Origin: a virus
Taxonomy: Duplodnaviria; Heunggongvirae; Uroviricota; Caudoviricetes
Strand: one strand, 5' to 3'
Length of the DNA stretch: 5,183 bases
Virus record (IMG/VR): IMGVR_UViG_2667527959_000003
Span: 1-5,183 of that record
The position numbers and the translations under genes are program-made. This document shows positions 1,192 through 5,095 of this stretch, piece by piece; positions within the stretch are counted from its first letter, which is position 1; every line of letters begins with the position of its first letter. The notes beneath the pieces are model-generated. The model was given only the letters and a program-made list of their open reading frames with translations. It was not told the origin of the DNA and did not search any database.

Positions 1192-1464
1192 GTGAAAAAT
1201 TATCTCAGCAATTTAGCCAGCATGCTTCAGGGGATTGCAGGTGTCATTTCAGACGGCGAGCGGGTGCAGAAAGAGTGCCCTGCGCACTTAAAGTCAGCAC
1301 TACTCGAGGCTTCTCACGCGCTAGATGGTCAATCGGTCAGGGTCAATTATCCGCCTAATGGAAAGCCTGAAATTGTTAATGCCCGCGGACACCATCGACC
1401 GCTTACCTTCCGGGAACGAGTGGCAATCCGCTTACTTGGTGGCAGGACGGAGATTCGCCCATGA
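1192..1464 (+). CDS. Hypothetical protein (about 90 aa)
   Basis: ORF track 1186..1464. GTG at 1192 sits 7 nt after GGAG (1181-1184), whereas GTG at 1186 overlaps the upstream stop but has no spacer. The 3' end is coupled to the next gene by ATGA (1461-1464). No recognisable motif. Confidence 0.55.
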   Translation: MKNYLSNLASMLQGIAGVISDGERVQKECPAHLKSALLEASHALDGQSVRVNYPPNGKPEIVNARGHHRPLTFRERVAIRLLGGRTEIRP

Positions 1465-2282
1465 GCACTATTACCAGAGAACTGGCAAAGCTGTTCAGAA
1501 AAATTACGAATTCTGAAATTGATGCGGAGGGTAACGCTCATGTTGTTTTATCTCCTGCTGATAGCCTCCTGATTAATAATGCGCGTATAGCACTGGCATC
1601 GCTCGAAGCAGAGCCTGTGGCGTATATGGTTGGCACGCAACTTCTGGAAAACATGACACAGGCGATTGCGTACAAAGCGGATACAGCCTTGCAAATTAAG
1701 CCGCTTTACACCGCCCCGTCAGCGCCGGTATCTGTTCCTGATTTGAAACCAGTTGGCTTTTTATTCGTGTCCGATGATGGCGCAGTTGCTTATTCTCCTG
1801 CTGGCTGCCCCATGAAAGGATTTAATCTAATCGGTCCGATTTACGGTGATGTGAACGCCTGCCGCGCCGCCATGCTTCAGTCCGATGGTACCCTCACCAA
1901 TGAAGGTACCATGCAGTTGTCCGGTAATTCCGAACAAATCGAACCCGTAAGTAATCGTGATGAGTTGCCGTTGGACTATCTGCAAGGTCACAAAGACGGC
2001 CTTGAATGGGCGGCGCAACTGGCAGAGGCCAATCATCCGCAAACAGGTGACTGGTTATACGACGACCCAATCGATCTTGCCAGGGCGATTCGCAAAGGTC
2101 CGGATATGCCTACTGTTCAGGCTGGCAACTCTCCGGTAACTCCGGATGGTTCAGCTAACATATTGCGGCGCTGGTTAGCATTTGGTCGCGCAATGCAAAG
2201 TTCTGGCAGTCAGTTACCTCGCCACCTGATTGCAGAAACCGAGTCCATGCTCGCAGCAGCACCGCAGCAGGAGGTGAAGTGA
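1461..2282 (+). CDS. Hypothetical protein, 273 aa, largest accessory ORF
   Basis: Long uninterrupted ORF with ATG at 1461 overlapping the upstream stop and GGAG 8 nt upstream. Ends ...AAPQQEVK*, with the last codons forming the SD for the next gene. No Walker, nuclease or other motif recognised. Confidence 0.7.
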   Translation: MSTITRELAKLFRKITNSEIDAEGNAHVVLSPADSLLINNARIALASLEAEPVAYMVGTQLLENMTQAIAYKADTALQIKPLYTAPSAPVSVPDLKPVGFLFVSDDGAVAYSPAGCPMKGFNLIGPIYGDVNACRAAMLQSDGTLTNEGTMQLSGNSEQIEPVSNRDELPLDYLQGHKDGLEWAAQLAEANHPQTGDWLYDDPIDLARAIRKGPDMPTVQAGNSPVTPDGSANILRRWLAFGRAMQSSGSQLPRHLIAETESMLAAAPQQEVK

Positions 2283-2470
2283 GTATGAGTGCATCACTTA
2301 TAACCGCCTTCAATCAAAGTGCAAATCCAAGCAATGAGCAGGTTGTTGTGTTCGGCTGGATTGCTGAGTATTTCGAAAGCATTTTCGACGATGAATCCGC
2401 TAGGTATTGCAGGAATATTTCTGAATCACTCAAAAATCAGGTTTCTGCTCAACAGGAGGTGAAGTCGTGA
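2279..2470 (+). CDS. Hypothetical small protein (about 61-63 aa)
   Basis: GTG at 2279 overlaps the upstream stop (GTGA), with an alternative ATG at 2285. AGGAGG at 2269-2274. Ends ...SAQQEVKS*. Bracketed by two copies of the CAGGAGGTGAAGT linker. Confidence 0.55.
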   Translation: MSMSASLITAFNQSANPSNEQVVVFGWIAEYFESIFDDESARYCRNISESLKNQVSAQQEVKS

Positions 2471-2679
2471 GCAAGCACATCATCAAATATGACTATCGAG
2501 AGGGAGTTAAACTCCCTAAGCACGAGATTGAGACATGGTGCGGTCATCGGCCATGGTCATTCGAATGGCTTTTTCAGGATGCTCAGCATGCGCTATTGAG
2601 CATTGATCAGGGAACGCTGTTTGTTCCTTGCAAGAATTGTCTGGCAGCAATCATCAAAACGGCGCAGGAGGTGAAGTGA
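2467..2679 (+). CDS. Hypothetical small Cys/His-containing protein (70 aa), possible zinc-binding
   Basis: GTG at 2467 overlaps the upstream stop (GTGA 2467-2470), with AGGAGG at 2454-2459 spaced 7 nt. Sequence contains WCGH...PCKNC (Cys-x-His, then Cys-x2-Cys). Ends ...TAQEVK*. Confidence 0.55.
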   Translation: MSKHIIKYDYREGVKLPKHEIETWCGHRPWSFEWLFQDAQHALLSIDQGTLFVPCKNCLAAIIKTAQEVK

Positions 2680-2963
2680 TGGACTCCTTCGCGAAATATA
2701 CGATCATTGACTGGATAGCATTCCTTCAGGTTTTGCTCATCTGGTTTTATATGGCTTACAGGAGTGGACAGTGGATTGTCAGTGTAGCCTGTAGCAAGGG
2801 ATGGCGTTGGTGGAACCGAAAGAATAAAAAAGCACTGGCATTGGATTCGTTTTACGAAGCATTCAATCTTAACAGTCTTCAGCCTGGTTCTGTCATTGTA
2901 GTCACCACTCAAAGCGGCATGACGATACAAATTCACAAGCCAAAGGAGGAAGGTCGTGGCTAA
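2679..2963 (+). CDS. Small putative membrane protein (94 aa)
   Basis: ATG at 2679 overlaps the upstream stop (TGATG), with AGGAGG at 2666-2671 spaced 7 nt. The ORF track's 2628 start is an in-frame upstream extension. Hydrophobic, Trp-rich stretch IIDWIAFLQVLLIWFYMAY...WIVSVA is consistent with one or two transmembrane helices, followed by a basic patch WRWWNRKNKK. Confidence 0.6.
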   Translation: MDSFAKYTIIDWIAFLQVLLIWFYMAYRSGQWIVSVACSKGWRWWNRKNKKALALDSFYEAFNLNSLQPGSVIVVTTQSGMTIQIHKPKEEGRG

Positions 2964-3237
2964 CCTTCAACTTGCCGTCAAAGGTGAATACTTCGATGCC
3001 ATGATTCGAGGAGAGAAAACGGAAGAGTATCGCCTGTGTAATGACTATTGGAATAAGCGAATTATGTTCCGGGAGTATGACCGCCTGATTATCACAAAGG
3101 GATATCCGAAGCGCGACGACTCCAGTCGCAGAATTGATGTTCCGTATGGAGGATATGAAGTGAAAACAATCACACACCCCCACTTCGGTGATAAACCGGT
3201 AAAGGTATACGCGATAAAGGTGAATATCAATTGCTAA
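2956..3237 (+). CDS. Hypothetical protein, 93 aa, possibly ASCH/PUA-like fold; occupies the position of lambda ea8.5
   Basis: GTG at 2956 with AGGAGG at 2944-2949 spaced 6 nt; overlaps the upstream gene by 8 nt. The motif KGEYFDAMIRGEKTEEYR resembles the N-terminal beta-strand/GxKT.E.R signature of ASCH/DUF3850-type domains, from memory only. Length and position match lambda ea8.5, but I cannot confirm identity. Confidence 0.6.
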   Translation: MANLQLAVKGEYFDAMIRGEKTEEYRLCNDYWNKRIMFREYDRLIITKGYPKRDDSSRRIDVPYGGYEVKTITHPHFGDKPVKVYAIKVNINC

Positions 3238-3261
3238 ATTAGTAGCATAGCATAAAGATGC

Positions 3262-3541: not shown

Positions 3542-3583
3542 AATTACAAAAACCCTAACCAATTGATGGATTTCTTTTATCTG

Positions 3584-3608
3584 AACTCGCTACGGCGAGT
3601 TTTGTTTT
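3584..3608 (+). terminator. Putative rho-independent terminator
   Basis: Inverted repeat AACTCGC (3584-3590), loop TACG, GCGAGTT (3595-3601), then a T-rich tail TTGTTTT. Confidence 0.5.
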
Positions 3609-3621
3609 ATGGAGATGATAA

Positions 3622-3789
3622 ATGCACTTTCGAGTCACAGGTGAATGGAATGGAGAGCCATTCAACAGGGTTATCGAAGCAGAGGACATCAACGACTGCT
3701 ATAACCACTGGATGCTATGGGCGCAGATAGCGCATGCAGACGTAACAAATATTCGAATTGAAGAACTGAAAGAACACCAAACCGCCTGA
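3622..3789 (+). CDS. Hypothetical small acidic protein (55 aa), absent from the supplied ORF track
   Basis: ATG at 3622 with GGAGA at 3611-3615 spaced 6 nt. Open for 55 codons (MHFRVTGEWNGEPFNRVIEAEDINDCYNHWMLWAQIAHADVTNIRIEELKEHQTA), stop TGA at 3787-3789 inside the loop of the following terminator. Confidence 0.45.
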   Translation: MHFRVTGEWNGEPFNRVIEAEDINDCYNHWMLWAQIAHADVTNIRIEELKEHQTA

Positions 3790-3802
3790 TGGCGGTTTTT
3801 TC
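3780..3802 (+). terminator. Rho-independent terminator
   Basis: Stem AACCGCC (3780-3786), loop TGAT, GGCGGTT (3791-3797), followed by a T-run (TTTTTT to 3801) then CTT. Confidence 0.65.
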
Positions 3803-3842: not shown

Positions 3843-4047
3843 TCAGGAGTGGAACGCACGCCAGCGGCGCCCAAGAAGCCTTGAAACAGTTCGTCGATGG
3901 GTACGCGAGTGCAGGATATTCCCTCCTCCGGTTAAGGATGGAAGAGAGTATCTGTTCCACGAATCAGCGGTAAAGGTTGACTTAAATCGACCAGTAACAG
4001 GTAGCCTTTTGAAGAGGATCAGAAATGGGAAGAAGGCGAAGTCATGA
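3829..4047 (+). CDS. xis: Excisionase Xis (72 aa), lambda-type
   Basis: Product MYLTLQEWNARQRRPRSLETVRRWVRECRIFPPPVKDGREYLFHESAVKVDLNRPVTGSLLKRIRNGKKAKS matches lambda Xis as I recall it. GGAG 8 nt upstream. 23-nt overlap with int, as in lambda. Confidence 0.95.
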   Translation: MYLTLQEWNARQRRPRSLETVRRWVRECRIFPPPVKDGREYLFHESAVKVDLNRPVTGSLLKRIRNGKKAKS

Positions 4048-5095
4048 GCGCCGGGATTTACCCCCTAACCTTTATATAAGAAACAATGGATATTACTGCT
4101 ACAGGGACCCAAGGACGGGTAAAGAGTTCGGATTAGGCAGAGACAGGAGGATAGCAATTACTGAAGCAATACAGGCAAACATTGAGTTATTTTCAGGACA
4201 CAAACACAAGCCTCTGACAGCAAGAATCAACAGTGATAATTCTGTTACGTTACATTCATGGCTTGATCGCTACGAAAAAATCCTCGCCAGCAGAGGAATC
4301 AAGCAGAAGACACTCATAAATTACATGAGCAAAATTAAAGCAATAAGGAGGGGTCTGCCTGATGCTCCACTTGAAAACATCACCACAAAAGAAATTGCGG
4401 CAATGCTCAATGGATACATAGACGAGGGCAAAGCGGCGTCAGCCAAGTTAATCAGATCAACACTGAGCGATGCATTCCGAGAGGCAATAGCTGAAGGCCA
4501 TATAACAACAAACCCGGTCTCTGCCACTCGCGCAGCAAAATCAGAGGTAAGGAGATCAAGGCTTACGGCTGACGAATACCTGAAAATTTATCAAGCAGCA
4601 GAATCATCACCATGTTGGCTAAGACTTGCAATGGAACTGGCTGTTGTTACCGGGCAGCGAGTTGGTGATTTATGCGAAATGAAGTGGTCTGATATCGTAG
4701 ATGGATATCTTTATGTCGAGCAAAGCAAAACAGGCGTAAAAATTGCCATCCCAACAGCATTGCATGTTGATGCTCTCGGAATATCAATGAAGGAAACACT
4801 TGATAAATGCAAAGAGATTCTTGGCGGAGAAACCATAATTGCATCTACTCGTCGCGAACCGCTTTCATCCGGCACAGTATCAAGGTATTTTATGCGCGCA
4901 CGAAAAGCATCAGGTCTTTCCTTCGAAGGGGATCCGCCTACCTTTCACGAGTTGCGCAGTTTGTCTGCAAGACTCTATGAGAAGCAGATAAGCGATAAGT
5001 TTGCTCAACATCTTCTCGGGCATAAGTCGGACACCATGGCATCACAGTATCGTGATGACAGAGGCAGGGAGTGGGACAAAATTGAAATCAAATAA
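4025..5095 (+). CDS. int: Integrase Int (356 aa), lambda-type tyrosine recombinase
   Basis: Begins MGRRRSHERRDLPPNLYIRNNGYYCYRDPRTGKEFGLGRDRR and ends REWDKIEIK, as lambda Int does. Catalytic signature in place: R in TGQRVGDL, H..R in HELRSLSARLY, H and Y in LLGHKSDTMASQY. AGAGGA at 4013-4018 spaced 6 nt. Confidence 0.97.
   Translation: MGRRRSHERRDLPPNLYIRNNGYYCYRDPRTGKEFGLGRDRRIAITEAIQANIELFSGHKHKPLTARINSDNSVTLHSWLDRYEKILASRGIKQKTLINYMSKIKAIRRGLPDAPLENITTKEIAAMLNGYIDEGKAASAKLIRSTLSDAFREAIAEGHITTNPVSATRAAKSEVRRSRLTADEYLKIYQAAESSPCWLRLAMELAVVTGQRVGDLCEMKWSDIVDGYLYVEQSKTGVKIAIPTALHVDALGISMKETLDKCKEILGGETIIASTRREPLSSGTVSRYFMRARKASGLSFEGDPPTFHELRSLSARLYEKQISDKFAQHLLGHKSDTMASQYRDDRGREWDKIEIK

What the first reader, a model, noticed from the sequence alone, without database searches (positions are those of the whole stretch)
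2268..2679. Exact 13-nt linker CAGGAGGTGAAGT repeated at three consecutive gene junctions, bracketing two mini-genes like cassettes
Identical copies lie at 2268-2280, 2453-2465 and 2665-2677. Each encodes the C-terminal tail ...Q-E-V-K of the upstream protein (QQEVK, QQEVKS, AQEVK), supplies a near-perfect SD (AGGAGGTGA) for the downstream gene, and runs into a stop/start overlap (GTGA or TGATG). The 63-aa and 70-aa genes are therefore each flanked by the same sequence, which is hard to explain by translational need alone, since other junctions in this operon use different SD contexts. A conserved boundary sequence like this fits the modular-exchange model of lambdoid mosaicism, in which short shared linkers act as recombination joints. 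It could also reflect a shared regulatory RNA element.
Basis: partly seen in the sequence, partly recalled or inferred. Interest (0 to 1): 0.6.

Follow-up and report, generated by a model that had tools for sequence, protein, structure and literature searches.

The report
Shared cassette junction in lambdoid phages
Three neighbouring small phage genes are joined by the same 13-base sequence, which ends one protein and carries the ribosome-binding site for the next, and related phages show that accessory genes have been swapped in and out at exactly these points.

Summary
CAGGAGGTGAAGT occurs exactly three times, at three consecutive gene junctions, always read as Q-E-V-K. No shuffle of the window reached that count.

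It is not the generic ribosome-binding context. In six whole lambdoid genomes (about 277 kb), only 3 of 123 AGGAGG sites extend to AGGAGGTGA, and all three are this junction.

The motif is the core of a widespread junction in the early-left accessory ("ea") operon of Escherichia, Salmonella, Shigella and Klebsiella temperate phages. It supplies the upstream tail and stop, a 9-nt perfect anti-Shine-Dalgarno complement, and a stop-overlapping start.

In relatives it joins at least 51 upstream to at least 36 downstream sequence clusters. Non-homologous replacement joints map 0-14 nt from each of the three copies. The slot holding the 63-aa gene holds other cassettes elsewhere, and cassette order can be permuted.

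There is no RNA structure, promoter or terminator at the copies.

This fits the "conserved boundary sequence" model of lambdoid mosaicism. Recombination through the 13-mer itself is inferred, not shown. Breakpoints also occur at junctions without the motif and inside genes, and the motif drifts among relatives. I rate it a well-documented new member of a known kind, of moderate interest.

The parts
2268..2280 (+). Linker copy 1. It encodes QEVK at the end of the EaA-like protein, whose stop is TGA at 2280-2282. AGGAGGTGA lies at 2269-2277. The downstream start is ATG 2285 (or GTG 2279).
   Evidence: Exact match. ORFs. Annotation of near-identical DNA.
2255..2282 (+). Extended form of copy 1: CAGCAGCACCGCAG plus the linker, encoding (A/P)AAPQQEVK*. 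The same stretch is shared with DUF551-type and other upstream genes in relatives.
   Evidence: Alignment of the window with L205 and L224. E. coli hits begin at 2247-2261 and at 2254.
2453..2465 (+). Linker copy 2. It encodes QEVK(S) at the end of the 61/63-aa protein. The GTG start of the 70-aa gene at 2467 overlaps the stop (GTGA).
   Evidence: Homology with relatives that carry a different upstream gene begins at 2451-2453.
2665..2677 (+). Linker copy 3. It encodes QEVK at the end of the 70-aa protein. The TGA stop at 2677-2679 overlaps the ATG start of the DUF4752 gene at 2679 (TGATG).
   Evidence: In an evenly spread sample, 36 of 40 E. coli genome hits start at 2656-2664. All 79 loci found through DUF4752 carry a linker-like sequence here.
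1461..2282 (+). EaA-like modular protein gene (273 aa). It is the upstream partner of copy 1.
   Evidence: Annotated as EaA in mEp043. No Pfam domain. Matches phrog_60.
2285..2470 (+). Cassette 1: mini-gene of 61 aa (63 aa if it starts at GTG 2279), phrog_23654, function unknown.
2467..2679 (+). Cassette 2: 70-aa gene, phrog_4090, function unknown.
2679..2963 (+). DUF4752 gene. It is the downstream partner of copy 3. Its own 3' junction with the next gene lacks the motif.
   Evidence: Pfam E = 2.7e-36..
2956..3237 (+). 93-aa gene (phrog_625). In six related loci it is joined directly to the 70-aa gene through a hybrid junction, CAGGAGGT|TAACCGTGGCTAACC, and DUF4752 is absent.

Best explanation
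The 13-mer is the core of a portable inter-cistronic adaptor used in the pL-distal accessory ("ea") operon of enterobacterial lambdoid and P22-like temperate phages.

In 13-17 nt it does three things:
- It encodes the last four residues (Q-E-V-K) and the stop of whatever gene lies upstream.
- It presents AGGAGGUGA, a 9-nt perfect complement of the 16S rRNA 3' end.
- It places the next start codon 4-7 nt later, overlapping or abutting the stop (UGAUG or GUGA), so the downstream mini-gene is translated by coupling.

Many unrelated genes carry the same adaptor. A crossover inside it, between two phages or prophages or between two copies in one genome, therefore regenerates an in-frame stop plus a working initiation site. 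Single genes can then be inserted, deleted, replaced or reordered seamlessly. The three exact copies in the window bracket two such cassettes.

Shown: the copies and their geometry; the rarity of the motif elsewhere in these genomes; combinatorial partner exchange; replacement joints that map onto the linkers.

Inferred: the translational coupling; that the exchange occurs by short-homology recombination within the linker, plausibly through the Erf, Rad52-like or Red annealing proteins encoded a few kb upstream in these operons, or through RecA on the longer 27-45 nt forms; and that selection retains such joints because they are seamless.
For: Copies and significance. Frame, tail, stop and start.

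Not a generic SD: in mEp043 (42.8 kb) the motif occurs only at these three junctions, and AGGAGGTGA occurs twice against 28 AGGAGG sites. P22 has none. Over six genomes the count is 3 of 123, all in ea junctions.

The tail is not part of any protein domain. It follows DUF551, DUF1627, dATP/dGTP pyrophosphohydrolase and Pfam-less proteins, outside the domain envelopes. Distant homologues of the 70-aa protein (46-59% identity) end in ...QALSED* or ...ELEKEL* instead.

Partner exchange: 83 A/P-tail junctions from a 14-mer scan join 51 upstream clusters to 36 downstream clusters in at least 50 combinations.

Sets found through a flanking gene rather than through the motif:
- All 79 DUF4752 loci have a linker-like sequence immediately upstream, with 30 different sequences 40-60 nt further up.
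- Close relatives of the 70-aa gene have at least 8 different upstream tails and at least 8 different downstream genes.

Joint positions:
- E. coli genome hits begin at 2656-2664 (36 of 40 sampled), at 2451 and at 2254, and at 2247-2261.
- Base-by-base, homology starts at 2451-2453 and at 2255, and ends at 2672, inside copy 3.
- Between junctions unrelated on both sides, identity forms an island exactly 13 nt wide, with flanks at about 25%.

The slot before the 70-aa gene holds a 185-nt, a 121-nt or a 269-nt cassette, or none. A 38-41-aa membrane mini-gene lies upstream of the 70-aa gene in L150 and downstream of it in L234.

The same upstream gene (...HWREMPAAP...) is joined to the 70-aa gene via AAGTCGTGA and to DUF4752 via AAGTGATG.

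The linkers diverge less than the gene between them: 10/156 against 242/1194 mismatches.

Annealing recombinases lie in the same operon.

Spread: the DUF551 tail plus linker 44-mer is found in 726 phage records, 397 of them near full length, from Salmonella, Escherichia, Stx phages, Klebsiella and Shigella.
Against: From general knowledge, 13 nt of identity is below the minimal efficient pairing length for RecA and for efficient Red recombination. Only the extended forms (27-45 nt) are comfortably long enough.

Mosaic breakpoints are not confined to the linker. HSP ends also pile up at boundaries without the motif (about 100-160, 2950, 3220-3250, 3560 and 3800). They also occur inside genes (2514 and 2620 in the 70-aa gene; 1940-2151 in the EaA-like gene).

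Neighbour diversity on the linker side of DUF4752 is only about twice that on its side without the motif: 10 against 5 clusters, effective numbers 2.5 against 2.1.

The linker drifts. Only 43 of 79 junctions are exact, and variants change the extended SD and the tail (QEMK, QEVN, QEAK). mEp043 copy 3 even weakens the SD core (CAGGTGG).

Lower divergence of the linker is also what selection on overlapping SD, stop and start functions would produce on its own.

The 14-mer set was selected on the motif itself.
Confidence: 0.6

Rival explanations
1. Selection only. Recombination in this region is essentially illegitimate or random. The shared junction persists and spreads only because it is a very good translational-coupling module. 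The linker marks surviving joints but is not the pairing substrate.
For: Breakpoints also occur at gene boundaries without the motif and inside genes. L115 carries a scar of a non-linker deletion...AAAPQE-AINALIPLVSRNE-QEVK*. The hybrid junction CAGGAGGT|TAACCGTGGC lies within, not across, a full linker. 13 nt is short for homologous pairing. The conserved core is the SD plus the stop/start.
Against: Random joints filtered by selection should not repeatedly recreate the same 13 nt in the same frame between dozens of unrelated gene pairs. The extended SD is evidently not required, since GAGATGA, GGTTAA and GGCGAA variants persist, so selection alone explains the exact identity poorly. Other junctions of the same operon function with different contexts.
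Confidence: 0.25
2. Independent convergence. Each of the three junctions evolved a maximal SD on its own, and the identity is coincidental.
For: 9 of the 13 nt are the perfect anti-SD complement. All junctions in the operon have strong SDs and overlapping stop/start codons.
Against: AGGAGGTGA follows only 3 of 123 AGGAGG sites in six genomes, and all three are this junction type. Identity extends beyond the SD (the C before it, AGT after it) and keeps the same frame. The same sequence joins many other gene pairs in relatives.
Confidence: 0.03
3. Functional peptide tag. The ...(A/P)PQ(Q)EVK C-terminus is selected at the protein level, for example as a degradation, interaction or localisation signal shared by the Ea proteins.
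For: The tail is translated on dozens of proteins and is often preceded by an Ala/Pro-rich stretch.
Against: The tail uses GAG and AAG rather than the codons E. coli prefers, and synonymous variants are few compared with what a purely protein-level constraint would allow. The tail changes to QEMK, QEVN, QEAK or QEVKS/P with the downstream partner. One cassette reads the linker in another frame (...CRR*, stopping at the TGA inside the linker). The tail lies outside the Pfam domain envelopes. Distant homologues lack it.
Confidence: 0.05
4. Structured or regulatory RNA element, or a site-specific cassette site (attC-like or PeSL-like) repeated at each junction.
For: Only the regular repetition at gene boundaries.
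Against: Folding z-scores are -1.08, +0.79 and +0.62, with three different structures. There is no Rfam hit. No promoter-like or terminator-like site lies at the copies. No inverted repeat involves the copies, apart from one chance-level pair of 14-nt arms, 86% complementary and 704 nt apart. The flanks are unrelated. The only integrase is a lambda-type Int, 97.5% identical to lambda, with its own attP.
Confidence: 0.02
5. Local tandem duplication in this one phage created the three copies.
For: The three copies are identical and adjacent.
Against: The two enclosed genes share no detectable similarity. Each is found separately with other neighbours. The flanks of the copies are unrelated. Relatives with the same gene order have non-identical copies.
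Confidence: 0.02

Closest known systems
Short conserved boundary (linker) sequences of the modular theory of lambdoid phage evolution (Susskind and Botstein 1978; Clark et al. 2001, HK620). Cited as such in PMC3029335; my account of the HK620 paper is from memory.
   Same: A short sequence conserved between otherwise unrelated flanks, sitting at gene or module boundaries in the early ("metabolic") region of lambdoid phages, with mosaic joints on it. It is proposed to focus homologous recombination.
   Different: I could not read Clark et al., so I cannot say whether this sequence is one of their seven. The 13-mer and the QEVK tail do not occur in the searchable open-access text. Here the boundary is a single-gene cassette joint rather than a functional-module boundary, and it is at once a coding tail, a stop, an SD and a start.
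PeSLs, the mobile promoter-early/stem-loop cassettes of T4-type phages (PMC2839356, PMC4122927).
   Same: Short conserved regulatory motifs that flank small ORFs of unknown function in hyperplastic regions and are proposed to mediate modular shuffling by recombination.
   Different: PeSLs are transcriptional (promoter plus terminator) and intergenic. This element is translational (SD plus stop/start), partly coding, and has no promoter or hairpin. The phage lineage and lifestyle also differ.
Classical translational coupling junctions (SD inside the upstream ORF, UGAUG or AUGA overlap, as in the trp operon and many phage operons). Established knowledge.
   Same: The geometry of all three copies. 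Every other junction in this operon has the same general design.
   Different: Ordinary coupled junctions are gene-pair specific. This one is the same sequence shared by dozens of unrelated gene pairs, and it has an unusually long 9-nt anti-SD match.
Morons of lambdoid phages (Juhala et al. 2000; Hendrix).
   Same: Small accessory genes gained and lost individually between neighbouring genes of lambdoid phages.
   Different: Morons carry their own promoter and terminator. These cassettes have neither and depend on the operon transcript and the shared adaptor.
Integron gene cassettes (attC sites).
   Same: Single promoter-less ORFs arrayed head to tail, each bounded by a recurring sequence, expressed from one upstream promoter, with variable content and order.
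   Different: There is no attC-like imperfect palindrome and no IntI. The only integrase is lambda Int with its own attP. Exchange would be by general or short-homology recombination rather than site-specific.
Relaxed or homeologous recombination by phage annealing proteins as a source of mosaicism (Martinsohn et al. 2008, PMC2327257; De Paepe et al. 2014, PMC3945230).
   Same: It provides the enzymology that could use short or imperfect homology patches flanking exchanged segments. Such recombinases are encoded in these same operons.
   Different: Those studies describe "HR traces" of variable sequence next to mosaics, not one recurring adaptor.

Membership tests
Conserved boundary/linker sequence of lambdoid mosaicism | A short sequence conserved between genomes whose flanks on both sides are unrelated | tested here: met
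   An identity island exactly 13 nt wide with flanks at about 25%. 51 upstream by 36 downstream clusters. Sets found through a flanking gene rather than the motif.
Conserved boundary/linker sequence of lambdoid mosaicism | Located at gene or module boundaries of the early region | tested here: met
   All copies lie at ORF ends and starts in the pL-distal ea operon. In whole genomes the motif is found only there.
Conserved boundary/linker sequence of lambdoid mosaicism | Mosaic (non-homologous replacement) joints coincide with it | tested here: met
   Joints lie 0-14 nt from each of the three copies. Joints also exist elsewhere.
Conserved boundary/linker sequence of lambdoid mosaicism | Recombination actually initiates or resolves within the sequence | not testable with these tools
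   Needs crosses with intact and scrambled linkers.
Translational-coupling junction | SD within the 3' end of the upstream ORF, 4-10 nt before the downstream start | tested here: met
   AGGAGGTGA ends 4 nt before GTG 2467 and before ATG 2679, and 7 nt before ATG 2285.
Translational-coupling junction | Stop and start overlap or lie within a few nt | tested here: met
   GTGA at copy 2 and TGATG at copy 3. At copy 1, GTGA or a 2-nt gap to ATG 2285.
Translational-coupling junction | Downstream translation depends on upstream translation | not testable with these tools
   Needs reporter fusions with premature stops and SD mutants.
PeSL-type mobile regulatory cassette | Early promoter plus stem-loop terminator in the repeated motif | tested here: not met
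   No promoter-like or terminator-like site at 2268, 2453 or 2665. No stable hairpin.
Integron attC cassette | Imperfect inverted repeat forming a recombinogenic hairpin | tested here: not met
Integron attC cassette | Adjacent IntI-type integrase with attI | tested here: not met
   The only integrase (4025-5095) is 97.5-98% identical at DNA level to lambda/434 int.
Moron | Own promoter and terminator flanking the inserted gene | tested here: not met
   In contrast, ORF 3622-3789 is flanked by terminator-like hairpins.
Rfam RNA family | A match to a curated covariance model | tested here: not met
   Only two sub-threshold hits, elsewhere in the window.

The most novel reading that the evidence does not exclude
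The QEVK/SD adaptor is not merely a tolerated joint. It is an evolved, dedicated plug-and-play system: a recombinase-independent, integron-like cassette array. Under this reading the phage's own annealing proteins use the adaptor at high frequency to reassort single accessory genes (possibly anti-defence or host-takeover genes) among co-resident prophages and infecting phages. The adaptor carries stops in two frames and a universal initiation site, so any incoming ORF is expressed at once.
Probability: 0.2. Interest if true: 0.7.

Novelty: new member of a known kind. Interest (0 to 1): 0.45.

Why it matters
The idea that short conserved linkers focus recombination in lambdoid phages is decades old, but few concrete sequences support it. 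The prevailing view is that most mosaic joints lack any shared sequence.

This case is compact and abundant: hundreds of phage records and dozens of partner genes. The shared sequence, its reading frame, its translational role and the joint positions can all be read directly, so the linker hypothesis can be tested by simple crosses and reporter assays.

It also has two practical uses. It helps delimit and annotate the many tiny ea-region ORFs, two of which are unannotated in reference records. It also explains why unrelated Ea proteins share a C-terminal ...PQEVK tail that should not be read as homology.

Tried and rejected
It gave no information on taxonomic range. Range was taken from the phage BLAST instead.
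- The RNA-structure idea was rejected on folding of each junction, Rfam and the promoter/terminator scan.
- The tandem-duplication idea was rejected because the two cassettes share no similarity.
- I compared neighbour diversity on the linker side and the non-linker side of DUF4752 as an internal control. The difference was weak (10 against 5 clusters) and the test is not decisive.
- I looked for allele-level divergence switches across the linkers. Base-level inspection showed that those switches lie inside the 70-aa gene (2514, 2620), so I do not use them as evidence for the linker.
- Literature: Clark et al. 2001 is not held. The exact-sequence and tail search found only irrelevant papers. 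The epsilon34, phage L and co-transfer papers do not mention such a junction.
- The P22 genome has no copy, so the motif is not universal in ea regions.
Full report
**Where the window comes from.** The window is the promoter-distal end of the early-left (pL) operon of a lambdoid phage or prophage, on the + strand. Gene order is:
- the end of a DUF2737 gene
- two Ead/Ea22-like genes (Pfam)
- a 90-aa ORF
- an EaA-like gene (1461-2282)
- a 61/63-aa gene
- a 70-aa gene
- a DUF4752 gene (2679-2963)
- a 93-aa gene
- two small ORFs
- xis and a lambda-type int (4025-5095), followed by attP

. The left two-thirds is 98% identical to phages mEp043 and mEp213. The int-xis end is 97.5-98% identical to lambda and 434. 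In related records the same operon runs from the recombination genes (Erf or Rad52-like, ssb, abc2) into these ea genes.

- CAGGAGGTGAAGT is present exactly at 2268, 2453 and 2665. No further site appears even at 2 mismatches, and none of 200 dinucleotide-preserving shuffles reached three.
- Copies 1 and 3 share 16 nt. This family is the top direct repeat in the window.
- All copies are read CAG GAG GTG AAG, giving the upstream tails ...APQQEVK*...SAQQEVKS* and ...KTAQEVK*.
- AGGAGGTGA is a 9-nt perfect complement of the 16S rRNA 3' end (established knowledge).
- The downstream starts follow 4 nt later at copies 2 (GTG 2467) and 3 (ATG 2679), overlapping the stops as GTGA and TGATG.
- At copy 1, curated annotations of identical DNA use ATG 2285, 2 nt past the stop, giving 61 aa. 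A GTG at 2279 would overlap the stop.
- The other five junctions of the operon are also coupled, but they use different contexts.
- The two enclosed genes are genuine conserved phage families of unknown function, phrog_23654 and phrog_4090. They are unrelated to each other.

**It is not the generic ribosome-binding context.**
- In the complete mEp043 genome the motif occurs only at these same three junctions. One copy there carries a mismatch.
- AGGAGGTGA occurs twice in mEp043, against 28 AGGAGG sites. P22 has none.
- Over six complete lambdoid genomes (277 kb), 3 of 123 AGGAGG sites extend to AGGAGGTGA. All three are this junction in the ea region.

**It is not an RNA element or a site-specific site.**
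- The three junction RNAs fold into different, unremarkable structures, with z-scores of -1.08, +0.79 and +0.62.
- Rfam finds nothing there.
- No promoter-like or terminator-like site coincides with a copy.
- There is no meaningful inverted repeat.

**What relatives show: the scan selected on the motif.**
- A scan of IMG/VR for the 14-mer returned, besides scattered unrelated hits, 83 junctions of one type.
- In that type an upstream ORF ends in an Ala/Pro-rich stretch plus Q(Q)EVK*, followed by (G)TGATG or CGTGA and a new gene.
- With the last 60 nt excluded, these junctions join 51 upstream sequence clusters to 36 downstream clusters in at least 50 combinations.
- The tail follows DUF551, DUF1627 and dATP/dGTP pyrophosphohydrolase domains as well as Pfam-less proteins. 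It lies outside the domain envelopes.

**What relatives show: sets found through a flanking gene.** Because the first set was selected on the motif, I repeated the analysis on loci found through flanking genes.
- All 79 loci found through DUF4752 carry a linker-like sequence immediately upstream. 43 are exact, 22 have one mismatch and 14 have two or three mismatches. There are 30 different sequences 40-60 nt further upstream.
- Loci found through the 70-aa protein show the linker on both sides in close relatives (77-94% identity). They have at least 8 different upstream tails and at least 8 different downstream genes.
- Relatives at 63-72% identity mostly keep diverged variants of the tail, and those at 46-59% identity end in ...QALSED* or ...ELEKEL*.
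- Between junctions unrelated on both sides, identity is an island exactly 13 nt wide.

**Where the joints are.**
- Against 5,426 complete E. coli genomes, 556 records match the region 2150-2800. In an evenly spread sample of 40, 36 alignments begin at 2656-2664, one to nine nt before copy 3.
- One further alignment begins at 2451, 2 nt before copy 2. Another begins at 2254, 14 nt before copy 1.
- The upstream genes in those genomes are DUF551, dATP/dGTP pyrophosphohydrolase or hypothetical proteins.
- The 61/63-aa gene is likewise preceded by EaA, by a pyrophosphohydrolase or by DUF551 genes, with homology starting at 2247-2261.
- Base-by-base alignments put the switch from unrelated to near-identical sequence at 2451-2453 and at 2255. 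They put the switch to unrelated sequence at 2672, inside copy 3.
- The same upstream gene (...HWREMPAAP...) is joined to the 70-aa gene through AAGTCGTGA and to DUF4752 through AAGTGATG. The crossover interval is therefore the 13-mer itself.

**Cassette behaviour.**
- In 19 related loci there are three linker-like junctions in a row.
- The slot before the 70-aa gene holds the 185-nt cassette of the window, a 121-nt cassette or a 269-nt cassette. In other loci it holds nothing.
- The 121-nt cassette encodes a 38-aa hydrophobic peptide. It reads the linker in another frame and stops at the TGA inside AGGAGGTGA. The adaptor therefore terminates ORFs in two frames, and its third frame is that of the downstream start.
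- That mini-gene lies upstream of the 70-aa gene in L150 and downstream of it in L234.
- Six loci join the 70-aa gene directly to the 93-aa gene through a hybrid junction.
- The DUF551 tail plus linker 44-mer is found in 726 phage records, 397 of them near full length, from Salmonella, Escherichia (including Stx phages), Klebsiella and Shigella.

**Limits.**
- Breakpoints also pile up at boundaries without the motif (about 100-160, 2950, 3220-3250, 3560 and 3800).
- They also occur inside genes: 1940-2151 in the EaA-like gene, and 2514 and 2620 in the 70-aa gene.
- Neighbour diversity on the linker side of DUF4752 is only about twice that on its non-linker side.
- The linker drifts among relatives, including in the extended SD and the tail.
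- Its lower divergence than the enclosed gene (10/156 against 242/1194 mismatches; Fisher p = 6e-6, alleles not independent) is also what overlapping functional constraints would produce.
- From general knowledge, 13 nt is short for RecA or efficient Red pairing. The extended 27-45-nt forms (AAAPQQEVK and HWMPLPEPPQEVK tails) are more plausible substrates.

**Interpretation.**
- The best-supported reading is a portable inter-cistronic adaptor: tail, stop, SD and start in one short sequence.
- It lets single accessory genes be exchanged seamlessly. It is propagated both because crossovers within it are automatically functional and because it offers a patch of homology.
- I put 0.6 on this composite reading.
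- I put 0.25 on the version in which the linker only marks selected joints and is not the pairing substrate. The remainder goes to convergence, a peptide tag, an RNA or site-specific element, or local duplication.

**Relation to known work.**
- The concept matches the "short conserved boundary sequences" of the modular theory (Susskind and Botstein; Clark et al. 2001, as cited in PMC3029335).
- It parallels the PeSL cassettes of T4-type phages (PMC2839356 and PMC4122927).
- It is compatible with relaxed recombination by phage annealing proteins (PMC2327257 and PMC3945230).
- DUF551 has been called a portable domain in Ea22 variants (PMC10834534).
- I found no open-access mention of this sequence or tail, and I could not read Clark et al..
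- I therefore class it as a new member of a known kind, of moderate interest.

Noticed in passing
window 2119-2151 (and the 1940-2151 module): A 33-nt stretch inside the EaA-like gene (CAGGCTGGCAACTCTCCGGTAACTCCGGATGGT, encoding QAGNSPVTPDG) matches at 100% in DUF551-protein genes of hundreds of E. coli genomes, many of them O157:H7, with nothing else aligned. The 1940-2151 module is shared at 91-94% with other DUF551 or hypothetical genes. This looks like an intragenic, inter-domain counterpart of the junction linker.
   Followed up: partly
window 1461-2282; upstream proteins in L006, L016, L017, L021, L031, L039, L047: The proteins that carry the QEVK tail form a mosaic superfamily sharing short motifs: an N-terminal MSTITxEWL...ALASLEAEP, an internal ACRAAMLQ, and PVTPDGW before the C-terminal domain. 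Between these motifs lie unrelated segments. The window protein has these motifs too, in slightly divergent form, which suggests domain-level shuffling at conserved peptide linkers.
   Followed up: no
window 2662-2695: At copy 3 the SD (GCGCAGGAG) can pair with codons 2-5 of the DUF4752 gene (CUCCUUCGC). This would mask the SD unless a ribosome translating the upstream gene opens it. The fold is not better than shuffles (z = +0.62), so this is only a hint of strict coupling.
   Followed up: partly
L115 (- strand), about 120 nt before its linker: An EaA homologue has a double tail, ...ESMLAAAPQE-AINALIPLVSRNE-QEVK*. A truncated first linker (CAGGAGG) is fused in frame to the last 13 codons of some other cassette and then to a full linker. 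It looks like the scar of a deletion that did not use linker-linker homology.
   Followed up: partly
L150 3669-3785; L234 3213-3338: A 38-41-aa hydrophobic mini-ORF (VITALAWHF...IFSLCRR*) behaves as a cassette of its own. In L150 it ends at the TGA inside the linker (+1 frame). It sits upstream of the 70-aa gene in L150 and downstream of it in L234.
   Followed up: yes
window 2467-2679 and 1192-1464; L121 4321-4530 and 3040-3312; L122 3704-3976: The 70-aa gene (phrog_4090, E = 1e-40) is not annotated in the RefSeq chromosome NZ_CP109924.1. The 90-aa ORF (phrog_14964, E = 6e-63) is not annotated in that record or in mEp043. These are probably missed small genes.
   Followed up: partly
L123 (mEp043) 24544, - strand: In mEp043 the third linker copy reads CAGGTGGTGAAGT. 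This breaks the AGGAGG core, so a weakened SD is tolerated at the DUF4752 start in a viable phage.
   Followed up: no
window 3583-3602 and 3779-3798: Two terminator-like hairpins flank ORF 3622-3789 (55 aa), just upstream of xis. This ORF has moron-like or terminator-bounded organisation, unlike the linker cassettes. The region corresponds to the ORF55/terminator region annotated in phage 434.
   Followed up: no
window 2940-2963 compared with DUF4752 loci L125-L204: At the DUF4752 3' junction, which lacks the motif, the last residues of DUF4752 change with the downstream partner (94-aa form ...AGGTCGTGGCTAA against 92-aa form ...AGAGGAAAAATGATG). The joint there lies inside the upstream gene's 3' end and no shared sequence is kept.
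   Followed up: partly
window 3148-3163: A fourth, weak copy of the repeat family (GGAGGATATGAAGTGA, 81% to the reference) lies inside the 93-aa gene (YGGYEVK). It is probably chance.
   Followed up: no
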